A stretch of 64,000 nt of DNA from a virus (lineage: Duplodnaviria > Caudoviricetes), in the IMG/VR virus record IMGVR_UViG_3300028197_000002; one strand, written 5' to 3'. The translations under genes and the position numbers were made by a program. Below are positions 3,215-57,508 of this stretch, piece by piece. Below the pieces are notes generated by a model. It was not told where the DNA came from. It searched no databases and saw only the letters and a program-made list of their open reading frames with translations. Numbering within the stretch: the first letter of the stretch is position 1; each line of letters opens with the position of its first letter.

Positions 3215-3622
3215 ATGAATGAATTAATATTAGAAATAAATAAACTGAGTGTAGAAGAAGTTGCCATAATAGTAGAAAACTATTGGTTGGAGTTGGCTGA
3301 GGTCGCAAAAGATCCTGCTCAAAAACAAACATTTTTACAAAAAGCTGGTGCTGTTGGAAAAAAAGTACTTCAAGGTATAGGCGGAGCAGCAAGAGGTGTG
3401 GCAGACGCATTTAAACAGGGATATGAAAACAAATCTAATATTGACAAAGTAATCCAACTTCTCACCGATGAGGGTCTTTATAATAATGAAATAAAGGCAA
3501 TTCTTGCAAAAGCGGTGATGCAGAAAGCACAAAAAGCCAAGGCATCTAAATCACCAAATAAGTCCGGCCAAAAACAAATGAAATTGCCATTCAAAGAATG
3601 GCTTTTAGAAAACTCAAAATAA
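3215..3622 (+). CDS. Hypothetical protein, possible head/internal protein
   Basis: GAGG SD; helical, Lys/Ala-rich; C-terminus MKLPFKEWLLENSK resembles the motif found at N-termini of other ORFs here. Confidence 0.6.
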   Translation: MNELILEINKLSVEEVAIIVENYWLELAEVAKDPAQKQTFLQKAGAVGKKVLQGIGGAARGVADAFKQGYENKSNIDKVIQLLTDEGLYNNEIKAILAKAVMQKAQKAKASKSPNKSGQKQMKLPFKEWLLENSK

Positions 3623-4360
3623 ACTTTTATTTACCCGTAACTTTTTAGCTATTGGTTTTTTGTGATAGTTTAATGATGTAGATTCAATAAAATAAAAATT
3701 TATATAAGTAAAGTTTTCAACTTCTAAACGCATGTCTTTCAAGAGAGAAACGGCATTCATTAAGTCTTTTTTATTAGAATGATAATGTCCAGAATAATTA
3801 TCGACATTGATTATTTTCCCTGAAGAATTAATATGAAGCCTGCCTGCTCCATAAACAAAAGAGGATTCGTCGCTTAAGTAATAATGCTTATATCCTATTT
3901 TTAAATTTTTACTTTTTGTAATTACGAAATCTAAAAAGATATCAGTTGAAGAATTTACAAAATTTGATTTAACAATATCTTTGAAATTTTTAAATAATAT
4001 TTTTTTGTCAACAATTTCAAATTCAAAATTTTTATATTCGCGTATAACATATTTTTTGGGATTTATTTTTAGTGTAATTGCATATTGAAAATGTTTTTTC
4101 AAAAACGCAAGACATTCTTTTACTTCAGATTTTTCAACTTCATTTAATTTTACTTTGACTTTTTTGTTTTTTACCTTAGCCAATTCATCGTCAAAACTTT
4201 TGCCATTTAAATAAAATAAAATTAAAAACTCATCTATTAATTCTTTTTTCAAATCTGTACTTTCAATTAATCTAAATAGTTCTGCATTATTTCCAGGATC
4301 ATTTGGAAACAAATGAGCTTTTTCTAACCAACTCTTTAGTTCTACATTTTTATTTAACAT
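3614..4360 (-). CDS. Hypothetical protein with toxin-like 'N.SGHY' C-terminal domain
   Basis: GAGRLHINSSGKIINVDNYSGHYH resembles the AG.l....G.i..i.N.SGHY signature seen in polymorphic-toxin/effector-like domains. Confidence 0.4.
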   Translation of the reverse strand: MLNKNVELKSWLEKAHLFPNDPGNNAELFRLIESTDLKKELIDEFLILFYLNGKSFDDELAKVKNKKVKVKLNEVEKSEVKECLAFLKKHFQYAITLKINPKKYVIREYKNFEFEIVDKKILFKNFKDIVKSNFVNSSTDIFLDFVITKSKNLKIGYKHYYLSDESSFVYGAGRLHINSSGKIINVDNYSGHYHSNKKDLMNAVSLLKDMRLEVENFTYINFYFIESTSLNYHKKPIAKKLRVNKSLF

Positions 4361-4424
4361 TGATATTTTTTTTGCTCTACTTAGAATGAGTATTCTTGTT
4401 TAACTTAATATATTTAATCTAATT

Positions 4425-4661
4425 ATGAAATACACAGAAAAAGAATTAAACTTAGCCAAAAGATATGCAAATGGGGATTGTAATGATGTTCAATTAAATT
4501 ATTTAATCTCAACGAATAATTTGGATCAGAAAAAAGTAGAGCTTTTAATTAATTTTTGTAAGCACTCTGCTCCTTTTGTAACTTTTTGTTGGGTTGTTCT
4601 TTTGTTCTATGTCTTTCATCTTTCGCTATGTTTTGCATATTCTTTGTATAATGTTTGGTGA
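4425..4661 (+). CDS. Small membrane protein
   Basis: 78 aa with hydrophobic C-terminal helix. Confidence 0.55.
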   Translation: MKYTEKELNLAKRYANGDCNDVQLNYLISTNNLDQKKVELLINFCKHSAPFVTFCWVVLLFYVFHLSLCFAYSLYNVW

Positions 4662-4678
4662 AATATTTGCTTTAAACG

Positions 4679-4706
4679 TTGACAATTAATTTTGAAATCT
4701 TATAAT
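4679..4706 (+). promoter_or_regulatory. Consensus sigma70-type promoter for csrA
   Basis: TTGACA (4679-4684), 16-nt spacer, TATAAT (4701-4706), 40 nt upstream of the csrA ATG. Confidence 0.8.
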
Positions 4707-4745
4707 TAAAGCACCTAAACTTAAAATTTTATTCAAGGAGTGGAT

Positions 4746-4925
4746 ATGTTAGTTCTTACTAGAAAAATGAATGAAAGTATTATCATTCAAGACAACATAG
4801 AGATTTGTATTGTTAATGTTGATAGAGACAGAGTCAAAATTGGAATACAAGCTCCCAAAGAAATCTCAATTCATCGAGCTGAAATTTATGAAAAAATTAA
4901 AAACTCTGATGTCGAAAAAGCCTAA
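4746..4925 (+). CDS. csrA: Carbon storage regulator CsrA/RsmA-family RNA-binding protein
   Basis: [48 protein letters not shown] is the classic CsrA pattern; AAGGAG SD supports ATG 4746. Confidence 0.95.
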
Positions 4926-4930
4926 TTACA

Positions 4931-4992: not shown

Positions 4993-4993
4993 A

Positions 4994-5248: not shown

Positions 5249-5303
5249 ATAATATCTTTTAATCCAATTGCTACATTCTGTTTTAATTAATTAATTAAAT
5301 AAG

Positions 5304-6649: not shown

Positions 6650-7066
6650 TTATTCAAATTTGTCAAAAGGGTGAAAAACTTTGACCCATTTGCCTTTAAA
6701 TAAGCTTTCTGGATCTTCAAATACTTGAGGACTATCATCATGGTGAATTAAAGAGTTTAGACCAGACAACATTTTTCCTTTAGGACCGCCGGTGGCAATT
6801 ACATCTATTATTGGAAGCTCATTATCTTTAGCGAATTGCACTACTTCTGGTCTATCGCGATTTTTTCTTGCAGTTACAACATAAACTGAGTAGCCTTGAG
6901 AAGCGTATTTTTTTAGTTTTCTTACATTCTCTTCACACGGCTTCTCTGAACTAGAAGACCAAATTTCATTTTCTTCATCCCAAAAAGGCAAGGTTAATGT
7001 GTTATCAAAATCAAATGTAACTACACCTTTATCTTTTCGAGATTCTATCCATTTCTTAAAGCTCAT
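6650..7066 (-). CDS. HAD-superfamily phosphatase
   Basis: Motif I FDFDNT, motif II VVTAR, Lys, motif IV HHDDS; AGGAG SD. Confidence 0.8.
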   Translation of the reverse strand: MSFKKWIESRKDKGVVTFDFDNTLTLPFWDEENEIWSSSSEKPCEENVRKLKKYASQGYSVYVVTARKNRDRPEVVQFAKDNELPIIDVIATGGPKGKMLSGLNSLIHHDDSPQVFEDPESLFKGKWVKVFHPFDKFE

Positions 7067-7096: not shown

Positions 7097-7507
7097 TTAT
7101 GGTGTGTGTTCAGTTGTATTTCTTTTTTCAAGATTTTTGTAATCTAGATGGTGATATACATCATCTAAATATTCTCCAGCAAGATTAATCTTAGATTTAA
7201 CCCAATCTCTTAATCCGGGAACTGAGTCGATATGTTTGAGTATTTGCAAAGCTTTGTCTTGAATGCTTTTTAAATCACCTATTGCCATTTTGTTTGGGAT
7301 TTTGCCTTCAAATTTATAATATTTAATATAATCCAGAACAGTATTTAAATAATCTTCTGCGTGAGTTAGTTTTGCTTTTATCCAATCTTCCAATTCTTCA
7401 CAAGGGCTTATCATTCCCATTAAATCTTCACTATATTTTGCAATTTTGTAAAGATCATTTTTGGCATGTTTGTAATCTTCTAAATGTTTTTTAAATTTTA
7501 ATTTCAT
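7097..7507 (-). CDS. Phage protein with two tandem copies of a helical domain
   Basis: AKNDL..IA......L....ELEDWIKAKLTHAEDYLNTV.DY and MAIGDL.SI...A..IL......LRDWVKSKINLAGEYLDDV.HHLDY. Confidence 0.6.
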   Translation of the reverse strand: MKLKFKKHLEDYKHAKNDLYKIAKYSEDLMGMISPCEELEDWIKAKLTHAEDYLNTVLDYIKYYKFEGKIPNKMAIGDLKSIQDKALQILKHIDSVPGLRDWVKSKINLAGEYLDDVYHHLDYKNLEKRNTTEHTP

Positions 7508-7509
7508 AA

Positions 7510-9036
7510 TTATCTTCTTTTTTCTAATTCGAAAGCTCTACCGTTAGATATTAATTTCAATATATGTTTATATGCTAATTCTGGTTTCATTTTTTTAAAT
7601 CTATTGTGATGTATAGCATCTGTCACAAAAGTTTTATCTTCTCCATCTATATTAGCTAAAATTCTTCCATCTTTAATCCATCCTGACAATACTACTTTTG
7701 GGATTGAAGGCTTTGGATCAAATTGAAGTTTGAGTTGTGTGTTTTCTTCCATGTCTTCAAACTCTATTTCTGTTTCTGTAACCTTATCTTCTATTCCATG
7801 TATTATCATTTTAGAAGCCTTTGCTATATTTTGTCTCCTAGCTTTAACATCATCACCTTTAGCTCGCCATAAAGCCAAGTAATTAGGGGCATCTTTGGTT
7901 TCAAAACCAAAATGATGACAAACAACATAGGCAGTTGTCTCAGCGTCTATTTCTTTTTGTTGTCTTGAAGATTGTTTTCCCAGATCAGATTTTTTACTTT
8001 TCTTTTCAAGCCAATGAAGTATTTCATGGGCTGTCTCATGAACCAAAGTGCTAAAAAGGTTCACTCCTTTAAACTTATTGTTGATAGCTATTTTGCCACC
8101 AGCAGAGTAACCGCCTAGGTCTTCAGCCATGTCTTCATAATCAACATTTATACTTTTTTCTTTATTCCATTTTACTAAAGAATTGATAAGAACATTAAGT
8201 TCTTCTACATCTTCATTAGTATCGCTACTCCAGTCTTTTCTATCAAGTGGCTTAAAAGAACTAGGATTACCCGGAATAGGGTCTGTTGCTGAATAATCAT
8301 AAACCTTAACAGCTCTAAAAAACTTAAGTTGAACCTTTTCTTTTTCTCCTGTGCTAGGGTTTTCTTTTTCTATATTTTTAAAATTAGGAGCAAATATAAC
8401 TATGCCTTTGTCCCAATTCGTAACTGTACGTCCTAGTTTTGTCCAATTTGTAGGAGAAGAAACATGCGCAGCTTGTCCTTTTGATTGAACATATATGAGA
8501 ATTTGATTTGCCAAGCTATAATTATGGAATTTAGAAGAAAACTTTAAAAAATCTTTTATGAAACGTTGTTTTCCAGCTTCATCTGTAGAGTTGGCAACTT
8601 TTTCTATTAAGTTTTCTATATTGTCAACTAACTTTTTAAGTTTAGCATCCGTTCCTTTTTTTAGTTCTCCTTCTAGTGAGTCTTGTACGTCTTGAAAGAA
8701 ATCTTCCGTCTCTTGAGAACTTTTATTTTTTACTACACTAGAACTCGAAGGAGGACTAGTCATTGTTTTTTCTAGGCCACTTAAATCAACTCCCAAATCA
8801 ACTAAAGATTGTTTAATATTTTCGAATTTAGATACTCCAATAGACCAAGTTCCTTTGAAGTATTTTAATCCTAATTTTTTCAATTCGTTTTTTATTGGAT
8901 AGGTTGCTCCATATAAAACAACAAATTCTTTTTCGCTGAAGGACTTGGAGGAATCATATTTTGGATTTTCTTTTTTATAAACTCGAACCCCTGTCGAATC
9001 TTCTTCCTCTAAAACTAGCCACTCTGAAAATTGCAT
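7510..9036 (-). CDS. ArdC-like ssDNA-binding + HExxH metallopeptidase-domain protein
   Basis: FSSKFHNYSLANQILIY...WTKLGRTV...IFAP (ArdC N-terminal-like); TLVHETAHEILH...EIDAETTAYVVCHHFG (HExxH); start moved to ATG 9036 because of GAGGG SD and TGA-T-ATG coupling. Confidence 0.75.
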   Translation of the reverse strand: MQFSEWLVLEEEDSTGVRVYKKENPKYDSSKSFSEKEFVVLYGATYPIKNELKKLGLKYFKGTWSIGVSKFENIKQSLVDLGVDLSGLEKTMTSPPSSSSVVKNKSSQETEDFFQDVQDSLEGELKKGTDAKLKKLVDNIENLIEKVANSTDEAGKQRFIKDFLKFSSKFHNYSLANQILIYVQSKGQAAHVSSPTNWTKLGRTVTNWDKGIVIFAPNFKNIEKENPSTGEKEKVQLKFFRAVKVYDYSATDPIPGNPSSFKPLDRKDWSSDTNEDVEELNVLINSLVKWNKEKSINVDYEDMAEDLGGYSAGGKIAINNKFKGVNLFSTLVHETAHEILHWLEKKSKKSDLGKQSSRQQKEIDAETTAYVVCHHFGFETKDAPNYLALWRAKGDDVKARRQNIAKASKMIIHGIEDKVTETEIEFEDMEENTQLKLQFDPKPSIPKVVLSGWIKDGRILANIDGEDKTFVTDAIHHNRFKKMKPELAYKHILKLISNGRAFELEKRR

Positions 9037-9353: not shown

Positions 9354-9902
9354 ATGAATAAAACTTTTGAAGAATGGCTTAAACTTCGAGAAGAGGGCGG
9401 AGCATCAGGTGGATCAGGCGGAGCATCAGGTGGATCAGGCGGAGCATCAGGTGGATCAGGCGGAGCATCAGGTGGATCAGGCGGAGCATCAGGTGGATCA
9501 GGCGGAGCATCAGGTGGATCAAGTGGAGCATCAGGTGGATCAAGTGGAGCATCAGGTGGATCAAGTGGAGCATCAGGTGGATCAAGTGGAGCATCAGGTG
9601 GATCAAGTGGAGCATCAGGTGGATCAAGTGGAGCATCAGGTGGCGAATCAGGCGGCGACTCGGGTGGAACACCACTGGGAGGTGACTCGGGTGACTCTGA
9701 AGGCGACTCAGAATCCAATGACTCAGGATCAGATCCAAATGATTCCGCTACAACATCTAAAGACATTGCTAAACGTCCATACAGAGTAGGTTTTTATCCT
9801 TGGGGATTTGGACATTGGGTTCAGAAAAAGAAAAAGAAGAAATGCAAATACGGCAAAAGAAAAGATGGTAAATGCAGAAAAACTAAAAAGAGGAAAAAAT
9901 AA
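9354..9902 (+). CDS. Gly/Ser-repeat protein with polybasic C-terminus, probable internal head protein
   Basis: MNKTFEEWLKLREE + (GASGGSG/S)x11 + acidic linker + KKKKKKCKYGKRKDGKCRKTKKRKK; GGAG SD. Confidence 0.7.
   Translation: MNKTFEEWLKLREEGGASGGSGGASGGSGGASGGSGGASGGSGGASGGSGGASGGSSGASGGSSGASGGSSGASGGSSGASGGSSGASGGSSGASGGESGGDSGGTPLGGDSGDSEGDSESNDSGSDPNDSATTSKDIAKRPYRVGFYPWGFGHWVQKKKKKKCKYGKRKDGKCRKTKKRKK
9399..9643 (+). repeat. 21-nt coding tandem repeat, 11 full copies plus a partial copy
   Basis: GGAGCATCAGGTGGATCAGGC x5, then GGAGCATCAGGTGGATCAAGT x6, then a partial unit. Confidence 0.95.
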
Positions 9903-12328: not shown

Positions 12329-13015
12329 TTACATTAAGTGTAGTTCTTTTTGATTGATATCATAAAACCCTCTTTCTGTTGGATCAAATAATTTACTATT
12401 CTCTCCATCAATTTTAGTAAGTTCGATATACATTGCGTCTACTGTAAATTTAACTCTCTCTACATCTTTTTTAATATCATTCGTATATCTAAGATGAGTT
12501 TTTCCTTCTTCTTGGTATTCTTCTGTAAGCGTATCTATTTCGAATTGTTCTTTGTCAACTATGGCGCAAACAGTTGCCTCATTTTTATTTTCATTTTTAT
12601 TTTTAATATACCATAATTTATGGTCGTTTTCATCCGCAATATCGGGTTTAAAAGAAATCTCAATTTTATTTTTACTTAAATTAAAATTTTCATTTGCTTT
12701 AAATCCAGCGCTATGAAGAATAAGGCAAATTTGCTCTGGAGTGGCATCTGTGGTTAATTCAAATTTCTTAGGAGTTTTATTTCTAAGGAAATCTCTAACT
12801 GTAGATCTGCACAGCAACAAGGTCTTTTTAGGCATTTTTATTTGCTTGGATGTATCATCCATTATTTCTATAGAGTTGCTTTTAGAAAAAGCTTCAATAA
12901 TAGGATTCATTTTAGAAGGAGGAACAAATCCTTCTTCTAATTTAATATATTGTTTTTTCCAATTTCCATCATCTTCGCCTTCTTTTTCTATTAAAAAATC
13001 TTTAAATTTTTTCAT
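12329..13015 (-). CDS. Degenerate CCA-adding/poly(A) polymerase head domain (pseudoenzyme)
   Basis: RSTVRDFLRNKTPKKFELTTDATPEQI aligns to GGxVRDLLLGKxPKDFDxxTxATPEQ; ERVKFTVDAMY aligns to RRDFTINAxY; ends after the head domain. Confidence 0.75.
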   Translation of the reverse strand: MKKFKDFLIEKEGEDDGNWKKQYIKLEEGFVPPSKMNPIIEAFSKSNSIEIMDDTSKQIKMPKKTLLLCRSTVRDFLRNKTPKKFELTTDATPEQICLILHSAGFKANENFNLSKNKIEISFKPDIADENDHKLWYIKNKNENKNEATVCAIVDKEQFEIDTLTEEYQEEGKTHLRYTNDIKKDVERVKFTVDAMYIELTKIDGENSKLFDPTERGFYDINQKELHLM

Positions 13016-13788
13016 TCCTCATCCTCATCTTTTTCTTTAGGATCATCAGGGCTTATGTCTCTTGCTGTTTTTCCTAACGGAAGAGGTTTTTTAGGCTTAA
13101 GCTGTATGCCAAGATCCAATTCATCGCCTTGTATGTTTCTGGAAACTATTTTAGGTTTTTCAAAATCAAAGTATTTTTCTAAATTTGTATGTTGCATTTT
13201 TATTACCTCTATAATAAGTGCAGTTGTAAATGCCACTGCTCTATCATAAGTGGCAGCGTTTTCCTGCTCCATTTCTCTAGTTACATGAGCGAATTTAGTA
13301 TCAGACTCTTTAGTTTCTCCTTCTTTTCTTATTCTTTTATCGTTTAAAATATCTTTTATTTTGTCTCGAATATTTTTTTTGTTTGTGCCGTAGCCTGATG
13401 GAGAAGTGCTTATGGTCATAGCATAATCGTCCTTATTAGGATCATTTCCAACCACTGGGACTTGAAGAGGAAGTTTCATATAAATTTCTAGTGGAACTCC
13501 TTCAGTAAGTCTTTTATAAATTAAAGGAACTTCTAGTCTTGAAACAGCAGTAGGTTTTACTAAATCTTTTTGAATAGCTTGGCCTAAAGCTCCCATGACG
13601 CCGCCGATTGCTCGTTCAACATCTCCCGGACTTGAGTCTTGACCGAATGTTCCTAAAGGTCCAATTCGTCCTATTCCAACGTTGCTTAATTCACTAGGCG
13701 TTTGATATCTTGTTCGTAATCTTGCTGGCCCAGCTTCATTTAATTGTTGTTCTTGTCGGCTTTTTAACCATTCATTAAAATTTTTCAT
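13012..13788 (-). CDS. Hypothetical protein, probable virion/internal protein
   Basis: MKNFNEWLKSRQE N-terminus; AGGA SD. Confidence 0.6.
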   Translation of the reverse strand: MKNFNEWLKSRQEQQLNEAGPARLRTRYQTPSELSNVGIGRIGPLGTFGQDSSPGDVERAIGGVMGALGQAIQKDLVKPTAVSRLEVPLIYKRLTEGVPLEIYMKLPLQVPVVGNDPNKDDYAMTISTSPSGYGTNKKNIRDKIKDILNDKRIRKEGETKESDTKFAHVTREMEQENAATYDRAVAFTTALIIEVIKMQHTNLEKYFDFEKPKIVSRNIQGDELDLGIQLKPKKPLPLGKTARDISPDDPKEKDEDEE

Positions 13789-14182: not shown

Positions 14183-14653
14183 ATGCCTAATAAAGAAGAA
14201 GAATTAATAAAATCAAAAGATGACGCTCTGATTGAAAAAGAAAAGCAAGAATTGGTTAAAAAAGAAGAACAAGAAAATTGCATAATAAGCGATGAAAATC
14301 TTCTTGGTGTATATGGGGAAGTAATGACTAATTTGAGGTCAGACAGAGATCAAATTTCTAATCTGGTGGATACTTTTTCGAATATGGTGATAAATGACGG
14401 AGATTGTTCTACTTCTAGCAAAGAGGCATTAGTTAATTTGCTAAAAACAAAAATAGACACTAGCGACAAAATGTCAAAAATAGCGGATTTAATGACGAGG
14501 ATAAAACTCAAGCAACCAGACACTTTCAAGCCATATATGAATGGCAGTAAAAAAGATAACGGAAATACAATAAATATTTATGATTCTAGTGGCATCAACA
14601 GAAAGTCTTTGATGGAAAAAATTCAGAAGGAAAAAAATAATGAACAAAAATAA
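14183..14653 (+). CDS. Hypothetical helical protein
   Basis: First gene of the long + strand operon; TATATT-N5-ATG upstream. Confidence 0.6.
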   Translation: MPNKEEELIKSKDDALIEKEKQELVKKEEQENCIISDENLLGVYGEVMTNLRSDRDQISNLVDTFSNMVINDGDCSTSSKEALVNLLKTKIDTSDKMSKIADLMTRIKLKQPDTFKPYMNGSKKDNGNTINIYDSSGINRKSLMEKIQKEKNNEQK

Positions 14654-44816: not shown

Positions 44817-45108
44817 CAATAACAAAAATGACTTATCTTTAGACGATTTCAAAAAATGGATAAAAGGTCAGGATGACTTTGCATCTAGATTTTCCAAAAG
44901 ATTCCCAATAGGCGAAAAAGTAATATCGCGTTGTGGCGGAAGAAAACTTTCAGAAACAATAACTCTTGATGAAGGCAATTTAAAAAGAGTTATAAAAGAA
45001 TTTCTAAAAAATGGCGGAAAAATAAAAGAATTCGACGATTACGAATATATTATCGAAGTTAGATGTGGATCTTTTTCTGTTAAGAAAAACTATGTGATGT
45101 TAGATTGA
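44809..45108 (+). CDS. Hypothetical protein
   Basis: AGGAG SD before ATG 44809. Confidence 0.55.
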   Translation: MDNNNKNDLSLDDFKKWIKGQDDFASRFSKRFPIGEKVISRCGGRKLSETITLDEGNLKRVIKEFLKNGGKIKEFDDYEYIIEVRCGSFSVKKNYVMLD

Positions 45109-49167: not shown

Positions 49168-50622
49168 ATGAAAAGCATAGCAGATTATTTCAGAGATGTA
49201 CTTATAGAACTTTCGAGCAATCTAAGAAAGCACTTAGAGGAGCTTGAAGCTTCGGTAAGAAAACATATAGCAGATTCAACTTCACCTTCGGGACAGCCAG
49301 CCAATGCAACGAACCGAAGTGAATCTTCAATTGTTGAGTCATACAAGAAAAAAAGAAAACTTTTTGATTTTGTGAAGTTAGAAAGCGAAAACTTTTTATT
49401 AAATTTTCCAGAAGGAAAGTTGAAACAATACACTTTTAAGCAAAATTTTGCAAATAAACTAATTGAATTTGCAATCAATGAAGCAGAAGTAATAAATGAA
49501 GAAGATCTTTCAAAAATCATAAATGATTTTAAAGAAAAAGTTATTAGATCAATGTCTGTGGCTAGCAATTCTATTCGAACAAAACAGCAGTTCACTAAAG
49601 AATTTGATCCTAAAGCAATAGTTGATAACGACGATGATGATGGACCATCTACACAAACGTATGATGATAAATCTGATGATGAAATTGAAGATATTGTCAA
49701 AAATCAACAAGCATCCACAAGCCAAAAGTCAAGTGCAGATGTCAAAAATCAACAAGCATCTAAAAGCCAAAAATCAAGTTCAGACGTCAAAGGAACTGCT
49801 ACCGCTAGTGACGTAGAAGAATTAGAACAACGTGAAGATGAAGAAAAAATAGCTTTAGATGAATTAAATTCTTTTTCAGACGAAGATAAAGAAGCAATAA
49901 TTTCTAATTTTCTTAATGCAGGTATTTTAAATCTTGATGGAAAAGTAAAAATTCCAACTGGAGATTTCAAGGGCATTCTCAAAAGAAGGACAGATAAAGA
50001 ATTAGAAAAGTATCTTCCGTCATTAACGAGCGATCACGTTGCTCATCTTATGGCCATAATGGTACATATAGCTCATGAACAAGAAGAAGATGGCTACGCT
50101 TCTATTTTTGAGAAAATTAAAAAGTTATATAAAAAAACAATAACTGAAATTGGAAAAAAATCTGGCGAGGAAGCAGCTAAACCACAAGATTCTAATAAAA
50201 CAACATCTAAAGCAGCTAAACCACAAGAAGATCCTAAAACAAAGCCCCAGAAAGCCCCAGAATCGTCAGTTAAGCCTCAGATGAAGTCTTACTCGTCTAA
50301 TTCGGTTAAGCCGGAAACAAAGCCTACAGACGATTCTAGGGATACACCGTCTATTCCAAGGCCAAAACTTCCACAAAGTGTCAAAACACCCACAGATTTT
50401 GCCAATTGGATGCAAAAGCTTTCTAGAGACATATATTCTACAAATAAATCAATAGGAACAATGGCTCAAGAAACCGCCAAAACTGCAAAAGATGCAGTTA
50501 GTCGTGGCGCTTTTAATGCCATAAACCCAGAAGAGCAATTTAATGCTTTTATGAATCTGGCTTTATCAGAACTTTCAGAAGAAGATTTATATAAATTAAT
50601 TACTTCAACTTCTGGATTTTAA
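49168..50622 (+). CDS. Hypothetical low-complexity protein
   Basis: 484 aa; acidic and K/P/S-rich linkers; TAAATA-N6-ATG upstream. Confidence 0.6.
   Translation: MKSIADYFRDVLIELSSNLRKHLEELEASVRKHIADSTSPSGQPANATNRSESSIVESYKKKRKLFDFVKLESENFLLNFPEGKLKQYTFKQNFANKLIEFAINEAEVINEEDLSKIINDFKEKVIRSMSVASNSIRTKQQFTKEFDPKAIVDNDDDDGPSTQTYDDKSDDEIEDIVKNQQASTSQKSSADVKNQQASKSQKSSSDVKGTATASDVEELEQREDEEKIALDELNSFSDEDKEAIISNFLNAGILNLDGKVKIPTGDFKGILKRRTDKELEKYLPSLTSDHVAHLMAIMVHIAHEQEEDGYASIFEKIKKLYKKTITEIGKKSGEEAAKPQDSNKTTSKAAKPQEDPKTKPQKAPESSVKPQMKSYSSNSVKPETKPTDDSRDTPSIPRPKLPQSVKTPTDFANWMQKLSRDIYSTNKSIGTMAQETAKTAKDAVSRGAFNAINPEEQFNAFMNLALSELSEEDLYKLITSTSGF
49696..49791 (+). repeat. 45-nt coding tandem duplication
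   Basis: GTCAAAAATCAACAAGCATC...CAGA(T/C) at 49696 and 49741, then GTCAAA. Confidence 0.85.
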
Positions 50623-52862
50623 TTAAATAAGTCTTTAATATTAATAGATGGATCTCTCTTTCTAGTCTTAGGATCAGTTCTCATAACTCTACTTTTTCTT
50701 CTTACGTTTTTCGCAAGCCATTTAAGAGCAGAAGTAAAAATTCCGTCTTTTTTGCCTTTTTGAGAAGTATCAACACCACTTTTCTTTGCCTGTTTTTCTT
50801 CAGCATCTTGAGCGACTTTGCCAACCTCTCTGTCAATAGAATCTACATTTGAGGATTGCATCTGTTTTAATTTAGATTTCAATTCATCTTGTCTTTTTTC
50901 AAGTTCTTTATCTAAAGCTTCTCCTGAATGACTAGATCTTCCTAGATTAAGTTCTATATCTTCTATCTCTTGCTCTAAAGAATCAACTTGAGATTCATTT
51001 TGATAAACTTGAGCAAGTAATTGTGGTATAGTTGCTATTTCTTGCTGTGGGTTGACTTTTCGAATAATTCTATTCCATTTCTCAGGAGTTTCTAATCTCA
51101 AGAATATTTGCAATATCATTTTTGCATAATTATCTCCTTGAGTATTTGCATTTGATTTGACTTTATTTGCCAATCTTTGCATTTTCTCTTTATCACCAGA
51201 CTTATATGCTTTTGCATAAGAAGGAATTATATCTCTAGATGCTTTGTCTCTAAAATAAATTAAAGCATTAGGCAATATTTTCGAATCAGCGTTTTCAGAC
51301 AATCCATATACTAAAGCTTTTTGATAAGGATTGTTAGATTTCATCATTTCGCTTTGAAGACGATTTGTTATTCCGTCTTTCACATCTTCACTGACATTTA
51401 ATTCTTTAAACACATGATTGTGAAATTCTTGAAGATCTTGATCTGATCCATCGAATATGTCTAATAATCTTGTGTGTATTTTTTCTTTTTGTTGCCAGTT
51501 TGGATTCATAGTTCCATAACCAGTAAATTTGGTATGTGGGTTCGAAGTTCCACCTTTTTGATAAGCAACATTAAATTTGTCGACATTAAGTCTTCGAGCT
51601 TTATTTCTTATCTTGTCAGTATGACCTTTTACTTTTCTTGAATAAGCTTCTATTTTTTTCTTTATAACACCAGAGATGTATTTTTCTTGTTGTTCTTCAG
51701 AAAGATCTTTTATAATAGGAATTAATTTTTTATATTCATCTTCAAATTTATCTTTTTTACGACTGATGTACTGAGCTGTTTTAATTAAACGATTAAGCTT
51801 ATCTCTTTCCAGTATCTTTTTTCTTCTTTCGCTAGTTCCTTTTTTATTTTCTTCAAGCCATTTGACAACTTCTTCTAGTTCCTTCTCTTTTTTAGAAAGC
51901 TCACTCTTATTTAAAAAAGTTTCGTCTGACAAATCAATCAAATCTATGTAATCTTTAAAATTTTCTTCTTCTAAATCTTTATCAAGTTGTTTTTCTATTC
52001 CACTCCAAATATCATGTGCTTTTTTAGTGGATGTCGCAATCATAAAAGCAGGTTTTAATATTGGAACATTTTCTTCAAAAGTAACAGTTTGGGTAATGCC
52101 ATTTTTACCTTTCTTTTGAACTGTAAACGTCTTAGGTTCAATAGGAATATCTTTTTTGCTGTAGAGAGTTTCTCTTCCTTGAGTAGAACCAACCCACTTC
52201 TCTTTTTTAATTTTACCAGAAGTATTAAATTTTCCTCTTTGATGCTCTCCTATCTCATTGTCATGCCAACCTTCTTCTGTCGCATTTATTAAGGTTCTAA
52301 GTCTTTTTCGAATTGAATTTAAATCAGGGACAATGTACCCAGCAGCTTTTCCAAAATTTTGAGCTTTACCTTTTCCTGTTTCGTTTCCACTCCATTTGAA
52401 ATCTTCAAAACTAAATCCATATTTGCCTTTTTTACCTTCTCTAGATATTTCAGAATACTTATCTGATTTATTGAAAGCTAAAGACGCATAAGCTTCATCA
52501 TCTACATCTGCATTGAGCTTGTCATATAATTTATTAATCCCAGTATCTACATTTGGAACTTTATAGCCATTTTTAAAATTTACTGTTTGGCGGTCCGATA
52601 TCTTTCCATTTTTTTCTCTGGCTTCATGAGCCTTATATAATAACCATCCATATCTTTGATATAAAGCTTGCGACCAAAACTTAGTTGGAAACTGATTCAA
52701 ATAATCAATATCATCTTGATCTAAAAAGATAGGTGTTTTTCTTGTTTCGTGAACAACTTCTTCTGTGCCGTCATCTTTTGTATATTTGATAGGCTTTGTA
52801 GCCATCTCCGAAACTGTTGCTTCATGAATGTCTTTTGCTTTTAAATAATCATTAAATTTCAT
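50619..52862 (-). CDS. Large hypothetical protein, possible internal head protein
   Basis: 747 aa, Lys-rich, coiled coils; MKFNDYLK N-terminus. Confidence 0.6.
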   Translation of the reverse strand: MKFNDYLKAKDIHEATVSEMATKPIKYTKDDGTEEVVHETRKTPIFLDQDDIDYLNQFPTKFWSQALYQRYGWLLYKAHEAREKNGKISDRQTVNFKNGYKVPNVDTGINKLYDKLNADVDDEAYASLAFNKSDKYSEISREGKKGKYGFSFEDFKWSGNETGKGKAQNFGKAAGYIVPDLNSIRKRLRTLINATEEGWHDNEIGEHQRGKFNTSGKIKKEKWVGSTQGRETLYSKKDIPIEPKTFTVQKKGKNGITQTVTFEENVPILKPAFMIATSTKKAHDIWSGIEKQLDKDLEEENFKDYIDLIDLSDETFLNKSELSKKEKELEEVVKWLEENKKGTSERRKKILERDKLNRLIKTAQYISRKKDKFEDEYKKLIPIIKDLSEEQQEKYISGVIKKKIEAYSRKVKGHTDKIRNKARRLNVDKFNVAYQKGGTSNPHTKFTGYGTMNPNWQQKEKIHTRLLDIFDGSDQDLQEFHNHVFKELNVSEDVKDGITNRLQSEMMKSNNPYQKALVYGLSENADSKILPNALIYFRDKASRDIIPSYAKAYKSGDKEKMQRLANKVKSNANTQGDNYAKMILQIFLRLETPEKWNRIIRKVNPQQEIATIPQLLAQVYQNESQVDSLEQEIEDIELNLGRSSHSGEALDKELEKRQDELKSKLKQMQSSNVDSIDREVGKVAQDAEEKQAKKSGVDTSQKGKKDGIFTSALKWLAKNVRRKSRVMRTDPKTRKRDPSINIKDLFN

Positions 52863-53293
52863 TTTTTTCCTTGGTTCATCATCGAATCCGACAAATTAGA
52901 TAGTTCTCCTATATTTATTTCTTGATCTTTCAAAATTTCTCTTTGTTCTTTTAATTTTTCCAGTTGTTTTTCGGCTTTTTCAGGAGCTTTTTTATTTAAT
53001 TCTTTATAACTGTCTATTTCTTTAGCGTCTTTAGGGTCATTTGGGTTTAATATTTCTTCTTCAGAAAGTCCCACAATGTGTTGCAAAAAGAAAAAGCTTC
53101 TAAGTTTTTTGTTGTTGTTCCACTGTTCTAATGTGACTCCATGACTATTAATTTCTAAAATCTTACCCACAAAATAATGAAATACTGGTTGTGGAAATGT
53201 ATTTGGGTTTTCTGACTTGAAGTCTCTGTTAGTAGGAATTGTGAATATGGTGCATACTCGTCCTTGAAAATATTCTAAATCTTTTATTTTCAC
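52859..53293 (-). CDS. Hypothetical protein (Sm-like beta N-terminus)
   Basis: GRVCTIFT...YFVGKILEINSHGVTL. Confidence 0.45.
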   Translation of the reverse strand: MKIKDLEYFQGRVCTIFTIPTNRDFKSENPNTFPQPVFHYFVGKILEINSHGVTLEQWNNNKKLRSFFFLQHIVGLSEEEILNPNDPKDAKEIDSYKELNKKAPEKAEKQLEKLKEQREILKDQEINIGELSNLSDSMMNQGKK

Positions 53294-54306
53294 AGTCTTC
53301 TTCCTCTTAATTGTGTGCTAAGAAAAAAATCGTATTGTTTTTCGTGTTGATGTATATAGTACCTAACAACTTTTAAGCCATCGTGTTGATACATGGCATT
53401 CCAGTCTTTATGTTCCTTAGATGCTCTCACATAAAAAATATTTTTAAATCCTTTTTGTAATAAAAAATCTCCCATTTTTGGCAAGGCGTCAGCACCAGCA
53501 CTGTCCGCATCTAGGCATAAAACAGGAACGTAGGATTTTATAATCTCTATTTGAGCATCCGAAAGTTCTTTTCCTCCAAAAGCAGCAGAGTAAAGACCAC
53601 ATTGACTAAGAGAAATTGCATCAAATTCTCCTTCTGTCAAATAAATTTTTTCTCCATCTTTTGGCCACTCAGGAACGTAAAGGACATCTCCTTTTCCAAT
53701 TCCAAGTTCTTTAGGAGGACCTAAGTATCTTAATTTACTATCACCTATACTTCTTCCATTGTAGTAAATTAATTCTTTATTTTTATTATAATAAGGAATT
53801 AAAATTCTATTTTTATATCTCCCTGATGTACAGACAAATAATTTGTCTGTACTGATCTTTCTTCCTTTCAGATAATCTTCGGCATTTTTTTTATAAAAAT
53901 TATTTGAAGGAAGATCATCAAATTTATACGTTCCTTCAGGAAGTTTTAAAGAAGTATTTTCTATTTCAATAAATGTTTTTTCAATTTTTATTTCAAATAT
54001 ATTCTTAACTTTATTTTCAAGATCTGCAATAGTGTGATTTGAAGTTTCAAGTATTTCTAAAGCATCATCAAAAGAGCATTTGTCAACTTGCATTACAAGA
54101 TTGACTAAAGAGCCTTTGCTGTCTGTTTTCCAGCAATGAAAAACTCCATAGGGAGCTTTGTTTTTACCTCCACTTGGATTACACCACATGTGATGTTTGT
54201 AATCATCGCAAAATATTGAATTTAATTTAACCTCTTCTCCTTTCACAACAACGTCATGAAAGCGAGATTCAGCCCAATCTAAAAATAAATCAAAATCTAT
54301 AGACAT
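53290..54306 (-). CDS. DNA primase (DnaG/T4 gp61-like)
   Basis: N-terminal Zn-binding region (C..HH..C..FHCW); TOPRIM IYLTEGEFDA and LCLDADSAG. Confidence 0.9.
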   Translation of the reverse strand: MSIDFDLFLDWAESRFHDVVVKGEEVKLNSIFCDDYKHHMWCNPSGGKNKAPYGVFHCWKTDSKGSLVNLVMQVDKCSFDDALEILETSNHTIADLENKVKNIFEIKIEKTFIEIENTSLKLPEGTYKFDDLPSNNFYKKNAEDYLKGRKISTDKLFVCTSGRYKNRILIPYYNKNKELIYYNGRSIGDSKLRYLGPPKELGIGKGDVLYVPEWPKDGEKIYLTEGEFDAISLSQCGLYSAAFGGKELSDAQIEIIKSYVPVLCLDADSAGADALPKMGDFLLQKGFKNIFYVRASKEHKDWNAMYQHDGLKVVRYYIHQHEKQYDFFLSTQLRGRRL

Positions 54307-55145: not shown

Positions 55146-56116
55146 AACCTTGTTCCAGCTGGCGCTGGAACAAGATCCCAATTGACTTTTTTCAATTCTT
55201 CAGTTAGAGGAATTGGTATGTAATCCCATTTGAATTTATTGCTAGGATTTTTCCAATCATAAATCGGAATATCTCTTCCTATAAATTCATTTGTTTTAAC
55301 TAACCACTCATGATCATTGTCTTTGAAAATTTTATGTATAGATTTCAAAGGAGTGAAATATCCAGTTCCATTACCAGAAGTGGTATCAGAAGTTCCCCAA
55401 CATATTCCAACATACCAGCTAGTATCTGTAATTAGGCCTCCACCAGATCTTCCCGGTCTTGGACTATTACGCCTAGTGACAAGGTCTAAGCCTCTCATTT
55501 CTATATACTCTACTTCATATCTTGCAACTTCTCTTCCTCCGTCACAACCCATAGAATTTAATCTTTCTTTTTCTTTTATTTTAAAGTCTACGGGAGCTAT
55601 AGGATAATACTTAGGCTTCCAGTCAGGCTTGAATCTCAAGCAACTAACGTCATAGCCACGATCATTACTCCAAAATAAAATTTCTGCCTCGTAAGAAGCA
55701 GGTTTGTCTAACTTGGTTTTATTTTTATACCAAGTTGTAACTTTAGCTTTCATCTTAGAGTTTAGATTGTATTTGTGATTTCCGGACCACAAATGACCAC
55801 ATGATATTACATAAGCCCAATTTTCTTCAGCATCATAATAGCATATAGTTCCAGAGCCACTTGCTCCATTAACAATAATCTTTAAAGAACAAGACAATAA
55901 ATCTACAAATTTAGAATCTCTTTGAGCTTTTGGCTCAAAAGAATGTCTAGATAAAGAGATTTCGGGCGATTGATCTCTAACAATTGGCATTTCTACCACA
56001 TTGTTATTTGGTGCCCATTTAAAACTAATTAAATCACTTTTAGCATGATTTAAAATTGAAGCTACTAATATAAGTAGCGAGGCGCTTAAGAACGCCAATA
56101 TCGAATTCCATTTCAT
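55142..56116 (-). CDS. Exported trypsin-like serine protease
   Basis: Signal/TM N-terminus; SGSGT, SCGHL (His), YDVS (Asp), PGRSGGGL (Ser); AGGAGG SD. Confidence 0.85.
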   Translation of the reverse strand: MKWNSILAFLSASLLILVASILNHAKSDLISFKWAPNNNVVEMPIVRDQSPEISLSRHSFEPKAQRDSKFVDLLSCSLKIIVNGASGSGTICYYDAEENWAYVISCGHLWSGNHKYNLNSKMKAKVTTWYKNKTKLDKPASYEAEILFWSNDRGYDVSCLRFKPDWKPKYYPIAPVDFKIKEKERLNSMGCDGGREVARYEVEYIEMRGLDLVTRRNSPRPGRSGGGLITDTSWYVGICWGTSDTTSGNGTGYFTPLKSIHKIFKDNDHEWLVKTNEFIGRDIPIYDWKNPSNKFKWDYIPIPLTEELKKVNWDLVPAPAGTRF

Positions 56117-56145
56117 AATAAGCCTCCTGCTTGTTACTTATATAT

Positions 56146-56661
56146 ATGGTAAATAAATTAGCATTATTCATAAATCATAATATTTTTTTAACAAAAGAAG
56201 AGTTAGAAAAAACATTAAACAAAAAAATTGTAAAAGTAATAGGAGCTAGCGTTCCTGTTTGGATGAACGTAAAAACAACAGAAACAACAGAGCCAGCCAA
56301 AGAGTTTTTTTGTGAATATGAAATTTATTATGACTCTGAAGAAGATGAGATTATTAAATCTGAATATGGTTACAATATATTCTTAAAAAAAGTTGATTGG
56401 AAAAAACCCAAAACAATTTCTTTAGAAGATTCATTGAAAATGACGCATCAAGAAAGAATGCTATATGAAAGAGAAATACAAATATTGTGGAAAAGCAATC
56501 CCGAGCCTCCAAATTTAAACAGATTAAGAAGCAAAGGAATATTTAAGAAATCTATAACTGAATTAAATATAACGCTGGATGAAATAGACAATAGCGTGAT
56601 TGACATTCAACATGTGTTAAATATAAAAAATATAAAAGATTTAAATGAAACTTTATGTTGA
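56146..56661 (+). CDS. Hypothetical protein
   Basis: About 171 aa from ATG 56146. Confidence 0.55.
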   Translation: MVNKLALFINHNIFLTKEELEKTLNKKIVKVIGASVPVWMNVKTTETTEPAKEFFCEYEIYYDSEEDEIIKSEYGYNIFLKKVDWKKPKTISLEDSLKMTHQERMLYEREIQILWKSNPEPPNLNRLRSKGIFKKSITELNITLDEIDNSVIDIQHVLNIKNIKDLNETLC

Positions 56662-56671
56662 ACTAAGGAGT

Positions 56672-57208
56672 TTATGTGAAATTTTCTAATCCTAAAGAAA
56701 TCTTCATACTAACACTCTCACCAGCATTAACAGTAACTGCCGAGCTTAAAGATATAGAAGAAATTACAGTATTAATAATAGGTTTAGACCCACTTGAGTC
56801 AAGGCCTGACGTTGTGCTAAGAGTAGATGATAAGAACACATTCTTAACAGGACCCCACAATCCACCAGTAGCTCGAAATAGAACTATAGGGCTATCTGCT
56901 TTGTAATTTGCATCAGGCGATCCGACAATCAAATTAAATTGATCATTACCTACGCTTTGTCTAGCGTATCCATTTGATGAAGGTTCGACAGGAGATATGG
57001 TTTCCAAAGTATCTTCTAATTGCAAGGTTGTTCTGTTATCTAAACCTATATAATAGTCATTAGGTATTCCATATCCATCAAATAATACTCTTAATATGTA
57101 TTCTTGGCCTTTTGAGTGAATTATATTTTTAATATCTTTTTCTTCATAAAGAATATTGCCATTAATGTCTAAATGTCTAAAGTAATCAATTTTTATTAAG
57201 TGTTTCAT
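56672..57208 (-). CDS. Virion structural protein (tail-associated type)
   Basis: KNIIHSKGQEYIL...YYIGL...NGYARQSV...FRATGG.WGPV...FL; GGAGG SD. Confidence 0.6.
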   Translation of the reverse strand: MKHLIKIDYFRHLDINGNILYEEKDIKNIIHSKGQEYILRVLFDGYGIPNDYYIGLDNRTTLQLEDTLETISPVEPSSNGYARQSVGNDQFNLIVGSPDANYKADSPIVLFRATGGLWGPVKNVFLSSTLSTTSGLDSSGSKPIINTVISSISLSSAVTVNAGESVSMKISLGLENFT

Positions 57209-57253
57209 GTTTCCTCCAACAAAAGTATTTATTATTTGCTAAATACTTTTGTT

Positions 57254-57508
57254 ATGATTATTATAAATTTTAGAAAGTGGTTAGAAGCTAGTGGTGGATC
57301 TGGTGGTGTCGGAAGTGGAATTCACCCTCCAAAACAAAAGCCCTTGTTGTATAAGGGAGCTTTATCCGATTATCATAGTAAGAGTGGAACAGATCCTTCT
57401 AATCAGAATGGAAAACTTCCTCCTGTCAGCAAAGAATCTAAAAAAAGAAGATACTGGGGCAAGAATCCTACAACTTACATGGGCAAAGAAATAAAAGAAT
57501 TAAAATAA
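57254..57508 (+). CDS. Small Gly-rich/basic protein, probable internal head protein
   Basis: INFRKWLEASGGSGG...KKRRYWGK; TAAATA-N8-ATG upstream. Confidence 0.55.
   Translation: MIIINFRKWLEASGGSGGVGSGIHPPKQKPLLYKGALSDYHSKSGTDPSNQNGKLPPVSKESKKRRYWGKNPTTYMGKEIKELK

What the first reader, a model, noticed from the sequence alone, without database searches (positions are those of the whole stretch)
3215..57508. Recurrent capsid-targeting-like N-terminal tag on about 10 unrelated proteins: a candidate packaged-and-injected cargo set
Seen: otherwise unrelated ORFs start with the same short motif. They are MSFKKWIE (HAD, 7066), MKLKFKKHLE (7507), MQFSEWLVLE (ArdC-like, 9036), MNKTFEEWLKLRE (9354), MKKFKDFLIE (dead nucleotidyltransferase, 13015), MKNFNEWLKSRQE (13788), MNKNNLQDWLAE (14640), MKFSSFV (15995), MKFNDYLKAKDIHE (52862), INFRKWLE (57254) and, more weakly, MKSIADYFRDVLIE (49168). 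Known: T4 internal proteins use an N-terminal capsid-targeting sequence (MKTYQEFIAE type) that the gp21 protease cleaves after (I/L)-X-E. Inference: this phage uses one tag to load a diverse cargo (anti-restriction-like protein, phosphatase, pseudo-nucleotidyltransferase, polybasic peptides) into the head for delivery at infection.
Basis: partly seen in the sequence, partly recalled or inferred. Interest (0 to 1): 0.8.

Follow-up and report, generated by a model that had tools for sequence, protein, structure and literature searches.

The report
T4-type capsid-targeting tags in huge phage
About a dozen unrelated proteins of this uncultivated ~370 kb marine phage start with the same short peptide that phage T4 uses to load proteins into its head, so the phage probably packs and injects a large protein toolkit; this is a known mechanism used on a much larger scale.

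Summary
Observation confirmed. All eleven N-termini are at the stated coordinates. The motif (Met, 0-3 residues, F/Y/L-x-x-W/F/Y-L/I, then Glu) sits at 12 of 139 gene starts in 110.7 kb, against 1 of 251 spurious ORFs and 1.3 +/- 1.1 in shuffled N-termini.

Interpretation supported by computation, but packaging is untested.
- Fifteen kb past the window lies a T4-order head module: portal, core protein, S77 (gp21-type) prohead protease with catalytic His and Ser, scaffold-like protein, gp23 capsid protein.
- The regex written from this window recovers T4 IPII and IPIII (MKTYQEFIAE). T4 IPI starts MKTFKEF.
- The aromatic residues at positions 4 and 7 and L/I at 8 are the residues mapped as targeting and processing determinants in T4.
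- Orthologues at 35-45% identity in two relatives keep the tag. These are an IMG/VR genome of 390 kb and GenBank LR756511.1 of 595 kb. They carry 15 and 34 strict tags.
- In one cargo family, 34 of 46 distant homologues keep W-hydrophobic-x(0-2)-E in the first 22 residues.

Cargo includes an ArdC-like protein, HAD phosphatases, CCA/poly(A)-polymerase-like proteins and Gly-Ser-linker polybasic proteins.

The mechanism is known from T4. The lineage, the scale and the cargo are new. This scan has flagged similar tags on other DNA before (e1-3862018, e1-1066390, e1-4036318).

The parts
6650..7066 (-). HAD-type phosphatase, 138 aa. Tag MSFKKWIE, followed by HAD motif I (DFDNTL).
   Evidence: The 70%-identical homologue P0006 starts MNFKEWIQLRE.
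7097..7507 (-). 136-aa protein of unknown family. Weaker tag MKLKFKKHLE, with His in the aromatic position.
7510..9036 (-). ArdC-like protein: ArdC N-domain at residues 149-260 and a weak zincin match. Tag MQFSEWLVLE at the second Met, which is the likely true start.
9354..9902 (+). 182-aa protein: tag MNKTFEEWLKLRE, then (GGSGGAS)n linker, an acidic stretch and a polybasic C-terminus.
   Evidence: The 21-nt tandem repeat is at 9397-9643.
12329..13015 (-). Head-domain-only CCA/poly(A)-polymerase homologue. GG and DxD are lost. Tag MKKFKDFLIE.
   Evidence: Orthologues carry MRKTFLEYLSLKE (G004), MRTTFLEFMGLKE (LR756511.1) and MISFKKFKILKE (P0004).
13012..13788 (-). 258-aa protein of unknown family. 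Tag MKNFNEWLKSRQE, followed by QQLNE|A.
   Evidence: F4, W7, L8 and LNEA are invariant in 7 homologues.
14640..15995 (+). 451-aa conserved cargo candidate: tag helix MNKNNLQDWLAE, about 85-aa disordered acidic linker, folded domain 101-445.
15995..16489 (+). 164-aa protein. Tag MKFSSFVDVKNKE(IIE).
   Evidence: Orthologues carry MMEKFFQFIDKKE (G004) and MLEFKEFIDKKE (LR756511.1).
50619..52862 (-). 747-aa protein of unknown family. Tag MKFNDYLKAKDIHE|A.
57254..57508 (+). 84-aa protein: tag MIIINFRKWLE, then GGSGG linker and a basic C-terminus.
   Evidence: The JGI gene call uses the same start.
49168..50622 (+). 484-aa protein. Weak tag MKSIADYFRDVLIE.
   Evidence: No orthologue was found in G004 or LR756511.1.
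3614..4360 (-). 248-aa protein, a likely extra member: MLNKNVELKSWLE, the same style as the 451-aa family.
44800..45108 (+). 102-aa protein with the motif DFKKWI about 16 residues from the start. The motif is conserved in both relatives (DFRKWV, DFRKWM).
3215..3622 (+). 135-aa protein that ends in a tag copy (...MKLPFKEWLLENSK-stop). It may be a C-terminal address or chance.
53290..54306 (-). DNA primase with N-terminus MSIDFDLFLDWAE. The resemblance is conserved in relatives but ambiguous. I do not count it as a tag.
16492..17046 (+). Context: gp2-like DNA end protector. It is followed by the contractile-tail module: tape measure 17050-23865, and gp25-, gp6- and gp53-like baseplate proteins.

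Best explanation
The motif is the counterpart, in this phage lineage, of the T4 capsid targeting sequence (CTS).

Proposed mechanism:
1. The first 8-18 residues form a short amphipathic helix. It has aromatic residues at about positions 4 and 7, L/I at 8, and a Glu 1-10 residues later.
2. During head assembly the helix docks the protein onto the scaffold and core inside the prohead.
3. The gp21-type S77 protease then cuts after the Glu and frees the mature protein.
4. The protein stays with the packaged DNA and enters the host on ejection.

Cargo in this window:
- an ArdC-like anti-restriction protein
- a HAD phosphatase
- a degenerate CCA/poly(A)-polymerase head domain
- two Gly-Ser-linker polybasic proteins, reminiscent of T4's small basic internal proteins
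- a conserved 451-aa protein and several proteins of unknown family

Shown here: the motif, its N-terminal specificity, its conservation, its identity with T4 CTS sequences, and the presence of a T4-type head module and protease.

Inferred: docking, cleavage, retention in the virion and injection.
For: (1) Statistics. 12/139 gene starts against 1/251 spurious ORFs; shuffles give 1.3 +/- 1.1. Fisher p = 1.7e-5 and 1.4e-7.

(2) Head module 8-18 kb past the window end, in T4 gene order 20-67/68-21-22-23. It holds Portal_T4, a 580-aa charged protein, PF03420 (E 4e-26), a 306-aa scaffold-like protein and Gp23 (E 3e-85). The protease matches T4 gp21 structure 5JBL (E 2e-15). GELDHP and GISSRG align with T4 GELNHP and GVSSRG.

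(3) T4 IPII and IPIII start MKTYQEFIAE|A, and IPI starts MKTFKEF (read from AF158101). The window-derived regex finds IPII and IPIII in a whole-genome scan of T4. The review PMC9026906 reports that targeting depends mainly on CTS residues 4 and 7 and processing on residues 8 and 10, and that gp21 cuts after L/I-x-E. These are the conserved positions here.

(4) Conservation. Orthologue pairs at 35-45% identity in G004 and LR756511.1 keep the tag while the neighbouring sequence diverges. So do P0004 and P0006. In the 451-aa family, 34 of 46 homologues have W-hydrophobic-x(0-2)-E in the first 22 residues, against 1 hit in 13,002 other residues.

(5) The AlphaFold2 model of the 451-aa protein gives a helix at 3-14, a disordered stretch at 15-100 and a confident domain after that. 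This is a tag-on-a-tether layout.

(6) The tag is not a DNA cassette. Upstream regions and codons differ between copies. It is not an AT-richness effect either, because LR756511.1 (42% GC) has 34 strict tags, p = 6e-10.

(7) The capsid protein has L-I-N-E|A directly before the stretch that aligns with residues 16 onward of mature T4 gp23.
Against: - There is no virion proteome and no cultured relative. The nearest isolates share only about 33% capsid-protein identity.
- Several tags end W-[LI]-E, which does not fit the strict T4 rule of L/I at P3. Only 9 of 12 have [LIVM]-x-E in the first 20 residues, against 46 of 127 other genes.
- The share of tagged genes is several times that of T4: 6.5% of crude gene calls here against 1.1% in T4. 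Unchecked first-reader notes suggest about 50 tags genome-wide. It is not known whether a head can hold that many protein species in useful copy numbers.
- Copies at a C-terminal end (3215-3622) and inside a Nudix fusion are not covered by the T4 precedent.
- A T4-type late promoter (TATAAATA) upstream of tagged genes could not be shown.
Confidence: 0.72

Rival explanations
1. The tag is a real address label but for another destination or partner. Examples: a phage-made compartment, the membrane or replication factory, a chaperone, or a degron read by one of the phage's other proteases. The likeness to the T4 CTS would then be convergent (a short amphipathic helix).
For: The partner of the tag was not identified. 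Many genes carry the tag: 34 strict hits in LR756511.1. The motif also occurs at an internal and a C-terminal position. First-reader notes report a ClpP-like protease elsewhere in the genome (unchecked).
Against: The motif matches T4 CTS sequences at the mapped determinant positions, not just in helix character. The genome has the complete T4-type prohead machinery. A Glu, often in an L/I-x-E context, follows the motif, as expected for a gp21-type cut.
Confidence: 0.12
2. The tag targets proteins to the prohead as in T4, but most tagged proteins are assembly or DNA-condensing internal proteins, or are degraded and expelled like scaffold fragments. They would not be effectors delivered to act in the host.
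For: The two Gly-Ser-linker polybasic proteins and the conserved 451-aa and 164-aa proteins next to the tail genes look structural. The poly(A)-polymerase-like copy in the window has lost its catalytic motifs.
Against: Other cargo has obvious uses at entry. These are the ArdC-like protein, a Swiss-Army-Knife RNA-repair HAD, and a full-length PolyA_pol with intact GG and DxD in G004. T4 internal proteins are injected, and IPI acts as an anti-restriction protein (PMC3012670).
Confidence: 0.12
3. Chance or composition: lysine- and asparagine-rich, AT-biased starts of genes happen to resemble one another.
For: The genome has 30-37% GC. MK and MN starts are common, and the regex was written after seeing the data.
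Against: 1/251 spurious ORFs of the same DNA carry the motif. Shuffles never exceed 6, against 12 observed. The same enrichment appears in genomes of 39% and 42% GC. The tag is conserved across orthologues.
Confidence: 0.02

Closest known systems
Phage T4 capsid targeting sequence (CTS) of internal proteins IPI, IPII and IPIII, removed by the gp21 prohead protease (Mullaney and Black 1996; reviews PMC9026906, PMC3012670)
   Same: A short N-terminal peptide on otherwise unrelated proteins, with aromatic residues at positions 4 and 7, L/I at 8 and a Glu cut site. Some tags are near-identical to T4's: MKTFKEF in T4 IPI against MKKFKDF here and MKTFSEW in the relative. The phage has a gp21-family protease and a T4-order head module, and anti-restriction-type cargo.
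   Different: T4 has three or four such proteins among about 280 genes. This phage has 10-13 in 64 kb, and its relatives have 15 and 34 strict hits. Here position 7 is usually Trp. The distance to the Glu varies from 1 to 10 residues, and several tags end W-L/I-E. Long disordered or Gly-Ser linkers follow some tags. Cargo includes enzymes of 130-750 residues. Nothing has been tested experimentally.
Inner-body and ejection proteins of giant phages phiKZ, 201phi2-1 and SPN3US, processed by a diverged gp21 homologue (PMC5694885, PMC9026906)
   Same: Giant phages that pack dozens of protein species in the head and trim them after Glu with a gp21-related protease. The propeptides are thought to act as targeting signals.
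   Different: Those propeptides are mostly over 100 residues with no shared short motif. The cut motif is S/A-x-E or A-x-E, and the head genes are only remotely T4-like. Here the tag is short, shared and T4-like.
Phage P1 Dar anti-restriction proteins packed in the head (P1 virion study PMC9024508; details from my own knowledge)
   Same: Anti-restriction proteins carried in the capsid and delivered with the DNA.
   Different: P1 packaging follows a protein-protein hierarchy rather than one short shared leader on many proteins. I did not test this here.
Encapsulin cargo-loading peptides (from my own knowledge)
   Same: A short portable peptide that directs varied cargo into an HK97-fold shell.
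   Different: That peptide is usually C-terminal, is not removed by a maturation protease, and the shell is not a virus. Only the C-terminal copy on 3215-3622 recalls this layout.

Membership tests
T4-type CTS / gp21 cargo-loading system | Short N-terminal peptide shared by otherwise unrelated proteins, with the targeting determinants at positions 4 and 7 (aromatic in T4) | tested here: met
   for the motif. for the T4 sequences. (PMC9026906) for the mapped positions; the same regex finds T4 IPII and IPIII.
T4-type CTS / gp21 cargo-loading system | Leader ends in the gp21 cut motif L/I-x-E | tested here: inconclusive
   9 of 12 tags have [LIVM]-x-E in the first 20 residues, against 46 of 127 other genes. 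Several end W-L/I-E instead. LNE|A is invariant in the 258-aa family. The real specificity of this protease is unknown.
T4-type CTS / gp21 cargo-loading system | Genome encodes a gp21-family (Peptidase_S77) prohead protease with catalytic His and Ser | tested here: met
   PF03420 at E 4e-26, above the cut-off. phrog_207 at E 7e-49. T4 gp21 structure 5JBL at E 2e-15. His and Ser align with T4.
T4-type CTS / gp21 cargo-loading system | T4-type prohead: gp20 portal, core and scaffold proteins, gp23 capsid protein with a cleavable N-terminal propeptide | tested here: met
   Portal_T4 and Gp23. T4 gp23 in the PDB at E 1e-33, with LINE|A directly before the stretch that aligns with residues 16 onward of mature T4 gp23. 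The scaffold and core proteins are assigned by position and composition only; they have no family hit.
T4-type CTS / gp21 cargo-loading system | Tagged proteins are present, N-terminally trimmed, in virions and are ejected with the DNA | not testable with these tools
   The phage is uncultivated and no proteome exists. The nearest isolates share about 33% capsid-protein identity.
T4-type CTS / gp21 cargo-loading system | The tag alone is enough to encapsidate a foreign protein | not testable with these tools
   This needs a tag-GFP experiment.
phiKZ-type inner-body / ejection protein propeptides | Long (>100 aa) non-shared propeptides cut at S/A-x-E | tested here: not met
   Tags are 8-18 residues, share one motif, and are followed by L/I/W-type sites. 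The feature is as described in PMC5694885.

The most novel reading that the evidence does not exclude
A clade of uncultivated huge phages (about 370-600 kb, including GenBank LR756511.1) uses one portable T4-derived address peptide to pre-load tens of different proteins into the capsid and inject them with the DNA. The cargo includes an RNA-repair set (Swiss-Army-Knife HAD phosphatase plus CCA/poly(A)-polymerase), an ArdC-like anti-restriction protein and a possible nuclease-fold protein. In effect this is a ready-made counter-defence proteome delivered before any phage gene is expressed. The peptide may also work from internal or C-terminal positions.
Probability: 0.35. Interest if true: 0.75.

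Novelty: new member of a known kind. Interest (0 to 1): 0.58.

Why it matters
If the tag works as in T4, the predicted virion cargo of huge uncultivated phages can be read straight from their genomes. That gives a concrete list of candidate injected effectors, many of unknown family, to test for anti-defence activity. It would extend the T4 internal-protein paradigm from three small proteins to tens of enzymes. It would also point to a different first-minutes strategy for giant phages from the phage nucleus. The tag is short, so it could be tried directly in the established T4 CTS-GFP packaging assay. In the searchable paper library I found no paper that links capsid-targeting sequences to huge phages.

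Tried and rejected
- Complex prediction of two copies of the scaffold-like protein with the tagged HAD protein gave no verdict. It is not used either way.
- A search for a T4-type late promoter (TATAAATA, up to 1 mismatch) within 70 nt upstream was inconclusive. There are 466 such sites in 110 kb. Several tail and head genes have TATAAATG at -22 to -30, but most tagged genes sit inside operons.
- Megablast of 20 kb against cultured and deposited phages found no match.
- No whole genome is held for the window, and the metagenome records could not be searched as wholes. I therefore walked 46.7 kb with exact-protein look-ups.
- The 258-aa tagged protein has no relative in IMG/VR by the pattern route.
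- Fold searches of the 451-aa cargo model gave no match at Foldseek E <= 0.001. The best lead is restriction endonuclease ThaI, 3ndh: Foldseek probability 0.82; VIA Z 7.3, rmsd 4.5, 180 residues aligned. Atlas feature hits to restriction-enzyme families scored 0.82-0.84. This is a lead only.
- The N-terminus at 45481 (LLSFNNFL) was rejected. The G004 orthologue aligns from a later Met.
- The primase N-terminus (MSIDFDLFLDWAE) is conserved in relatives but was left uncounted as ambiguous.
- Many IMG/VR hits to the DNA pattern belong to unrelated families. Examples are a 97-aa protein on about 6 kb contigs and the MKFEEWLSQQNGVIE family, so MKFxEWL alone is not diagnostic.

Full report
WHAT THE WINDOW IS

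The window is 100% identical over its last 12 kb to ENA contig ERZ27245942 k141_383542 (330.7 kb). It is 99.97% identical to JGI 3300025120 Ga0209535_1000002 (259 kb). Protein clusters from the window list a longest contig of 372.5 kb. It is therefore part of an uncultivated marine huge phage.

The window carries a contractile-tail module:
- a 2271-aa tape measure at 17050-23865
- gp25-, gp6- and gp53-like baseplate proteins
- a gp2-like DNA end protector at 16492-17046

It also carries a primase and many accessory genes.

CHECKING THE OBSERVATION

For three of them the tag Met is the more credible start:
- 9036: GAGGG lies 8 nt upstream, and an independent gene call of 508 aa agrees.
- 15995: TAATG overlap with the preceding gene.
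- 57254: the same start as the JGI gene call.

I turned the motif into a regex: Met, 0-3 residues, F/L/Y/I, two polar residues, W/F/Y/H, one hydrophobic residue, then Glu within 8 residues. Results:
- It hits 10 of 130 Met near ORF starts against 2 of 422 internal Met; p = 1.7e-5.
- A looser pattern gives 19/195 against 6/557; p = 1.4e-7.
- Over 110.7 kb, 12 of 139 genes are hit, against 1 of 251 spurious ORFs from the same DNA.
- 1000 shuffles of the N-termini give 1.26 +/- 1.12, never more than 6.

The regex was written after seeing the data, so I tested it on DNA that played no part in writing it:
- The next 46.7 kb of the same phage: 3/90 against 1/221, p = 0.07, low power. This yields MKSIKEWLE, MKFTKWLQLKE and MRFAEWLIFE. 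MQSFLNWMKE turned up with the looser aromatic pattern.
- G004, a 390 kb, 98% complete IMG/VR genome: strict form 15/1148 against 3/2051, p = 5e-5.
- GenBank LR756511.1, 595 kb and 42% GC: 34/1677 against 8/3227, p = 6e-10.

The motif is real and N-terminus-specific. It is not a by-product of AT-rich sequence.

THE HEAD MACHINERY

I walked along the contig with exact-protein look-ups. Between 8 and 18 kb beyond the window end lie, in this order:
- a Portal_T4 protein carrying an intein
- a 580-aa highly charged protein
- a Peptidase_S77 protein
- a 306-aa acidic helical protein
- a Gp23 capsid protein

T4 has the same order: 20, 67/68, 21, 22, 23. My own scans give PF03420 at E 4e-26 and PF07068 at E 3e-85, and phrog_207 at E 7e-49. 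The protease matches the T4 gp21 structure 5JBL at E 2e-15. Its GELDHP and GISSRG align with the T4 catalytic His and Ser motifs.

The capsid protein matches T4 gp23 at E 1e-33. Its L-I-N-E|A lies directly before the stretch that aligns with residues 16 onward of mature T4 gp23. So it has an N-terminal propeptide with a gp21-type site.

COMPARISON WITH THE T4 CTS

From the T4 genome itself, IPII and IPIII start MKTYQEFIAE|A, and IPI starts MKTFKEF...ITE|A.

The review PMC9026906 reports three relevant facts:
- The first ten residues of IPIII are enough for head incorporation.
- Targeting depends mainly on residues 4 and 7, and processing on residues 8 and 10.
- gp21 cuts after L/I-x-E.

The tags here have F/Y at about position 4, W/F/Y at about 7, L/I at about 8 and a Glu soon after. 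MKKFKDFLIE differs from the T4 CTS only by conservative changes.

In a blind scan of the whole T4 genome, the window-derived regex returns IPII, IPIII and the 54-aa gp61.1 (MKTFKEFIKE). It shows no N-terminal enrichment otherwise. By the strict form, T4 has about 1% tagged genes and this phage 6.5% of crude gene calls.

CONSERVATION

G004 and LR756511.1 are syntenic relatives. Capsid-protein identity is 77% and 75%, and tail proteins share 30-45%. Orthologues keep the tag while the surrounding sequence changes:

| Protein | Window | G004 | LR756511.1 |
|---|---|---|---|
| Poly(A)-polymerase-like | MKKFKDFLIE | MRKTFLEYLSLKE | MRTTFLEFMGLKE |
| 451-aa protein | MNKNNLQDWLAE | MTDIINLEDWLE | MTDRINLEDWLD |
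| 164-aa protein | MKFSSFVDVKNKE | MMEKFFQFIDKKE | MLEFKEFIDKKE |

A 70%-identical HAD homologue has MNFKEWIQLRE in place of MSFKKWIE. A 45%-identical nucleotidyltransferase homologue has MISFKKFKILKE.

A full HMMER search with the 451-aa protein found 84 cluster representatives. Of the 46 that include the N-terminus, 34 have W-hydrophobic-x(0-2)-E within the first 22 residues. The rest of these proteins (13,002 residues) hold one such hit. After the motif comes a non-conserved Pro/Gly/Asp-rich stretch.

The AlphaFold2 model (mean pLDDT 81) shows a helix at residues 3-14, disorder from 15 to 100, and a confident domain after that. This fits an address peptide on a tether.

The tag-coding DNA and the upstream regions differ between copies. 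Selection therefore acts on the peptide, not on a repeated DNA cassette.

DISTRIBUTION

Many hits are unrelated families. Several AT-rich fragments, however, carry three to five tagged genes within about 10 kb (L020, L025, L041, L091). CheckV rates the fragments whose records were looked up at 10-25% complete, meaning genomes of several hundred kb. Several of these fragments (L020, L025, L041, L072, L119) share proteins with this phage.

The closest deposited record is LR756511.1. From memory, unverified, it belongs to the 2020 survey of huge phages. No cultured phage is close.

THE CARGO

In the window:
- an ArdC-like protein: ArdC N-domain at E 4e-6, phrog_7245 anti-restriction at E 4e-13
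- a HAD phosphatase
- a PolyA_pol head domain that has lost GG and DxD and is truncated
- two proteins built as tag, Gly-Ser linker and polybasic tail
- several proteins of unknown family

In G004 the tagged neighbours are a HAD of the Swiss-Army-Knife RNA-repair type (PF10307, E 3e-14) and a full-length PolyA_pol with an RNA-binding domain and intact motifs. RNA-repair enzymes therefore seem to be regular cargo.

Eight of the ten clear tags in the window lie at 6.6-16.5 kb, directly upstream of the gp2-like and tape-measure genes. A corresponding cluster of tagged genes exists in G004 (317.9-328.6 kb) and LR756511.1 (574.8-583.6 kb). It looks like a conserved cargo island.

POINTS THAT DO NOT FIT NEATLY

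- Several tags end W-L/I-E, so the aliphatic residue is at P2, not P3. The specificity of this protease may differ from T4's, as it does in phiKZ and SPN3US.
- The motif also occurs at the C-terminal end of 3215-3622.
- It occurs about 16 residues into 44800-45108, conserved in both relatives.
- It occurs inside a Nudix fusion protein beyond the window (ATFKEWLE at residue 154).
- Late-promoter evidence is inconclusive.
- The one complex prediction gave no verdict.

VERDICT

In mechanism it is a new member of a known kind. What is new is the lineage, the scale and the enzyme cargo. Encapsidation, cleavage and injection remain inferences.

The scan has produced similar reports on other genomes, and first-reader notes list about 50 more tags across this genome. 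I re-checked only the few that fell in the sequence I fetched.

Noticed in passing
window 47877-48896 (+): 339-aa actin-family protein matching Pfam Volactin end to end (E 3.6e-64). It is 61% identical to the G004 orthologue. A phage-encoded actin homologue next to the tail-fibre region.
   Followed up: partly
window 5585-6562 (-): Protein with a type IV prepilin N-terminus (GFTLIELLVV) plus DUF1559/SBP_bac_10. From my own knowledge this combination is typical of Planctomycetota. It may be a host clue.
   Followed up: no
window 9397-9643: 21-nt tandem repeat, 11.8 copies at 99% match, encoding the GGSGGAS linker of a tagged protein. The 8.9 kb ENA contig L005 ends inside it, so it probably breaks assemblies.
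   Followed up: partly
window 3215-3622 (+): 135-aa protein that ends in a near-perfect tag copy (MKLPFKEWLLENSK-stop). It may be a C-terminal address peptide, or chance.
   Followed up: partly
L013:6905-8104 (+), about 33 kb beyond the window end: 399-aa Nudix protein with an internal tag core (ATFKEWLE at residue 154) after I-K-E. In LR756511.1 the Nudix gene is separate and sits next to tagged genes. The window phage version looks like a gene fusion or a cleavable two-part protein.
   Followed up: partly
window 14640-15995 (+): The folded domain of the conserved 451-aa tagged protein weakly resembles type II restriction endonucleases (ThaI 3ndh: Foldseek probability 0.82, VIA Z 7.3 over 180 residues; Atlas features also point to restriction enzymes). 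It may be a packaged nuclease-fold protein.
   Followed up: partly
L008:5453-7966 (-), about 10 kb beyond the window end: The T4-type portal gene carries an intein (precomputed Pfam hit to Intein_splicing).
   Followed up: no
T4 genome AF158101 18966-19130 (-): The uncharacterised T4 gene 61.1 (54 aa), next to the primase gene, starts MKTFKEFIKE. That is a CTS-like N-terminus. I do not know of it being listed among T4 internal proteins.
   Followed up: partly
window 4740-4925 (+), 60454-60903 (+), 63336-63803 (-), 9914-10762 (+): Host-like accessory genes: CsrA, the MscL mechanosensitive channel, a ferritin-like protein and a patatin-like phospholipase.
   Followed up: no
window 17050-23865 (+): The tape measure protein has 2271 aa, against 1058 aa in G004. 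This implies a very long tail.
   Followed up: no
GenBank LR756511.1 (595,163 bp): Closest deposited record: capsid protein 75% identical, 57 of 139 proteins shared. It is deposited without annotation and carries 34 strict tags.
   Followed up: yes
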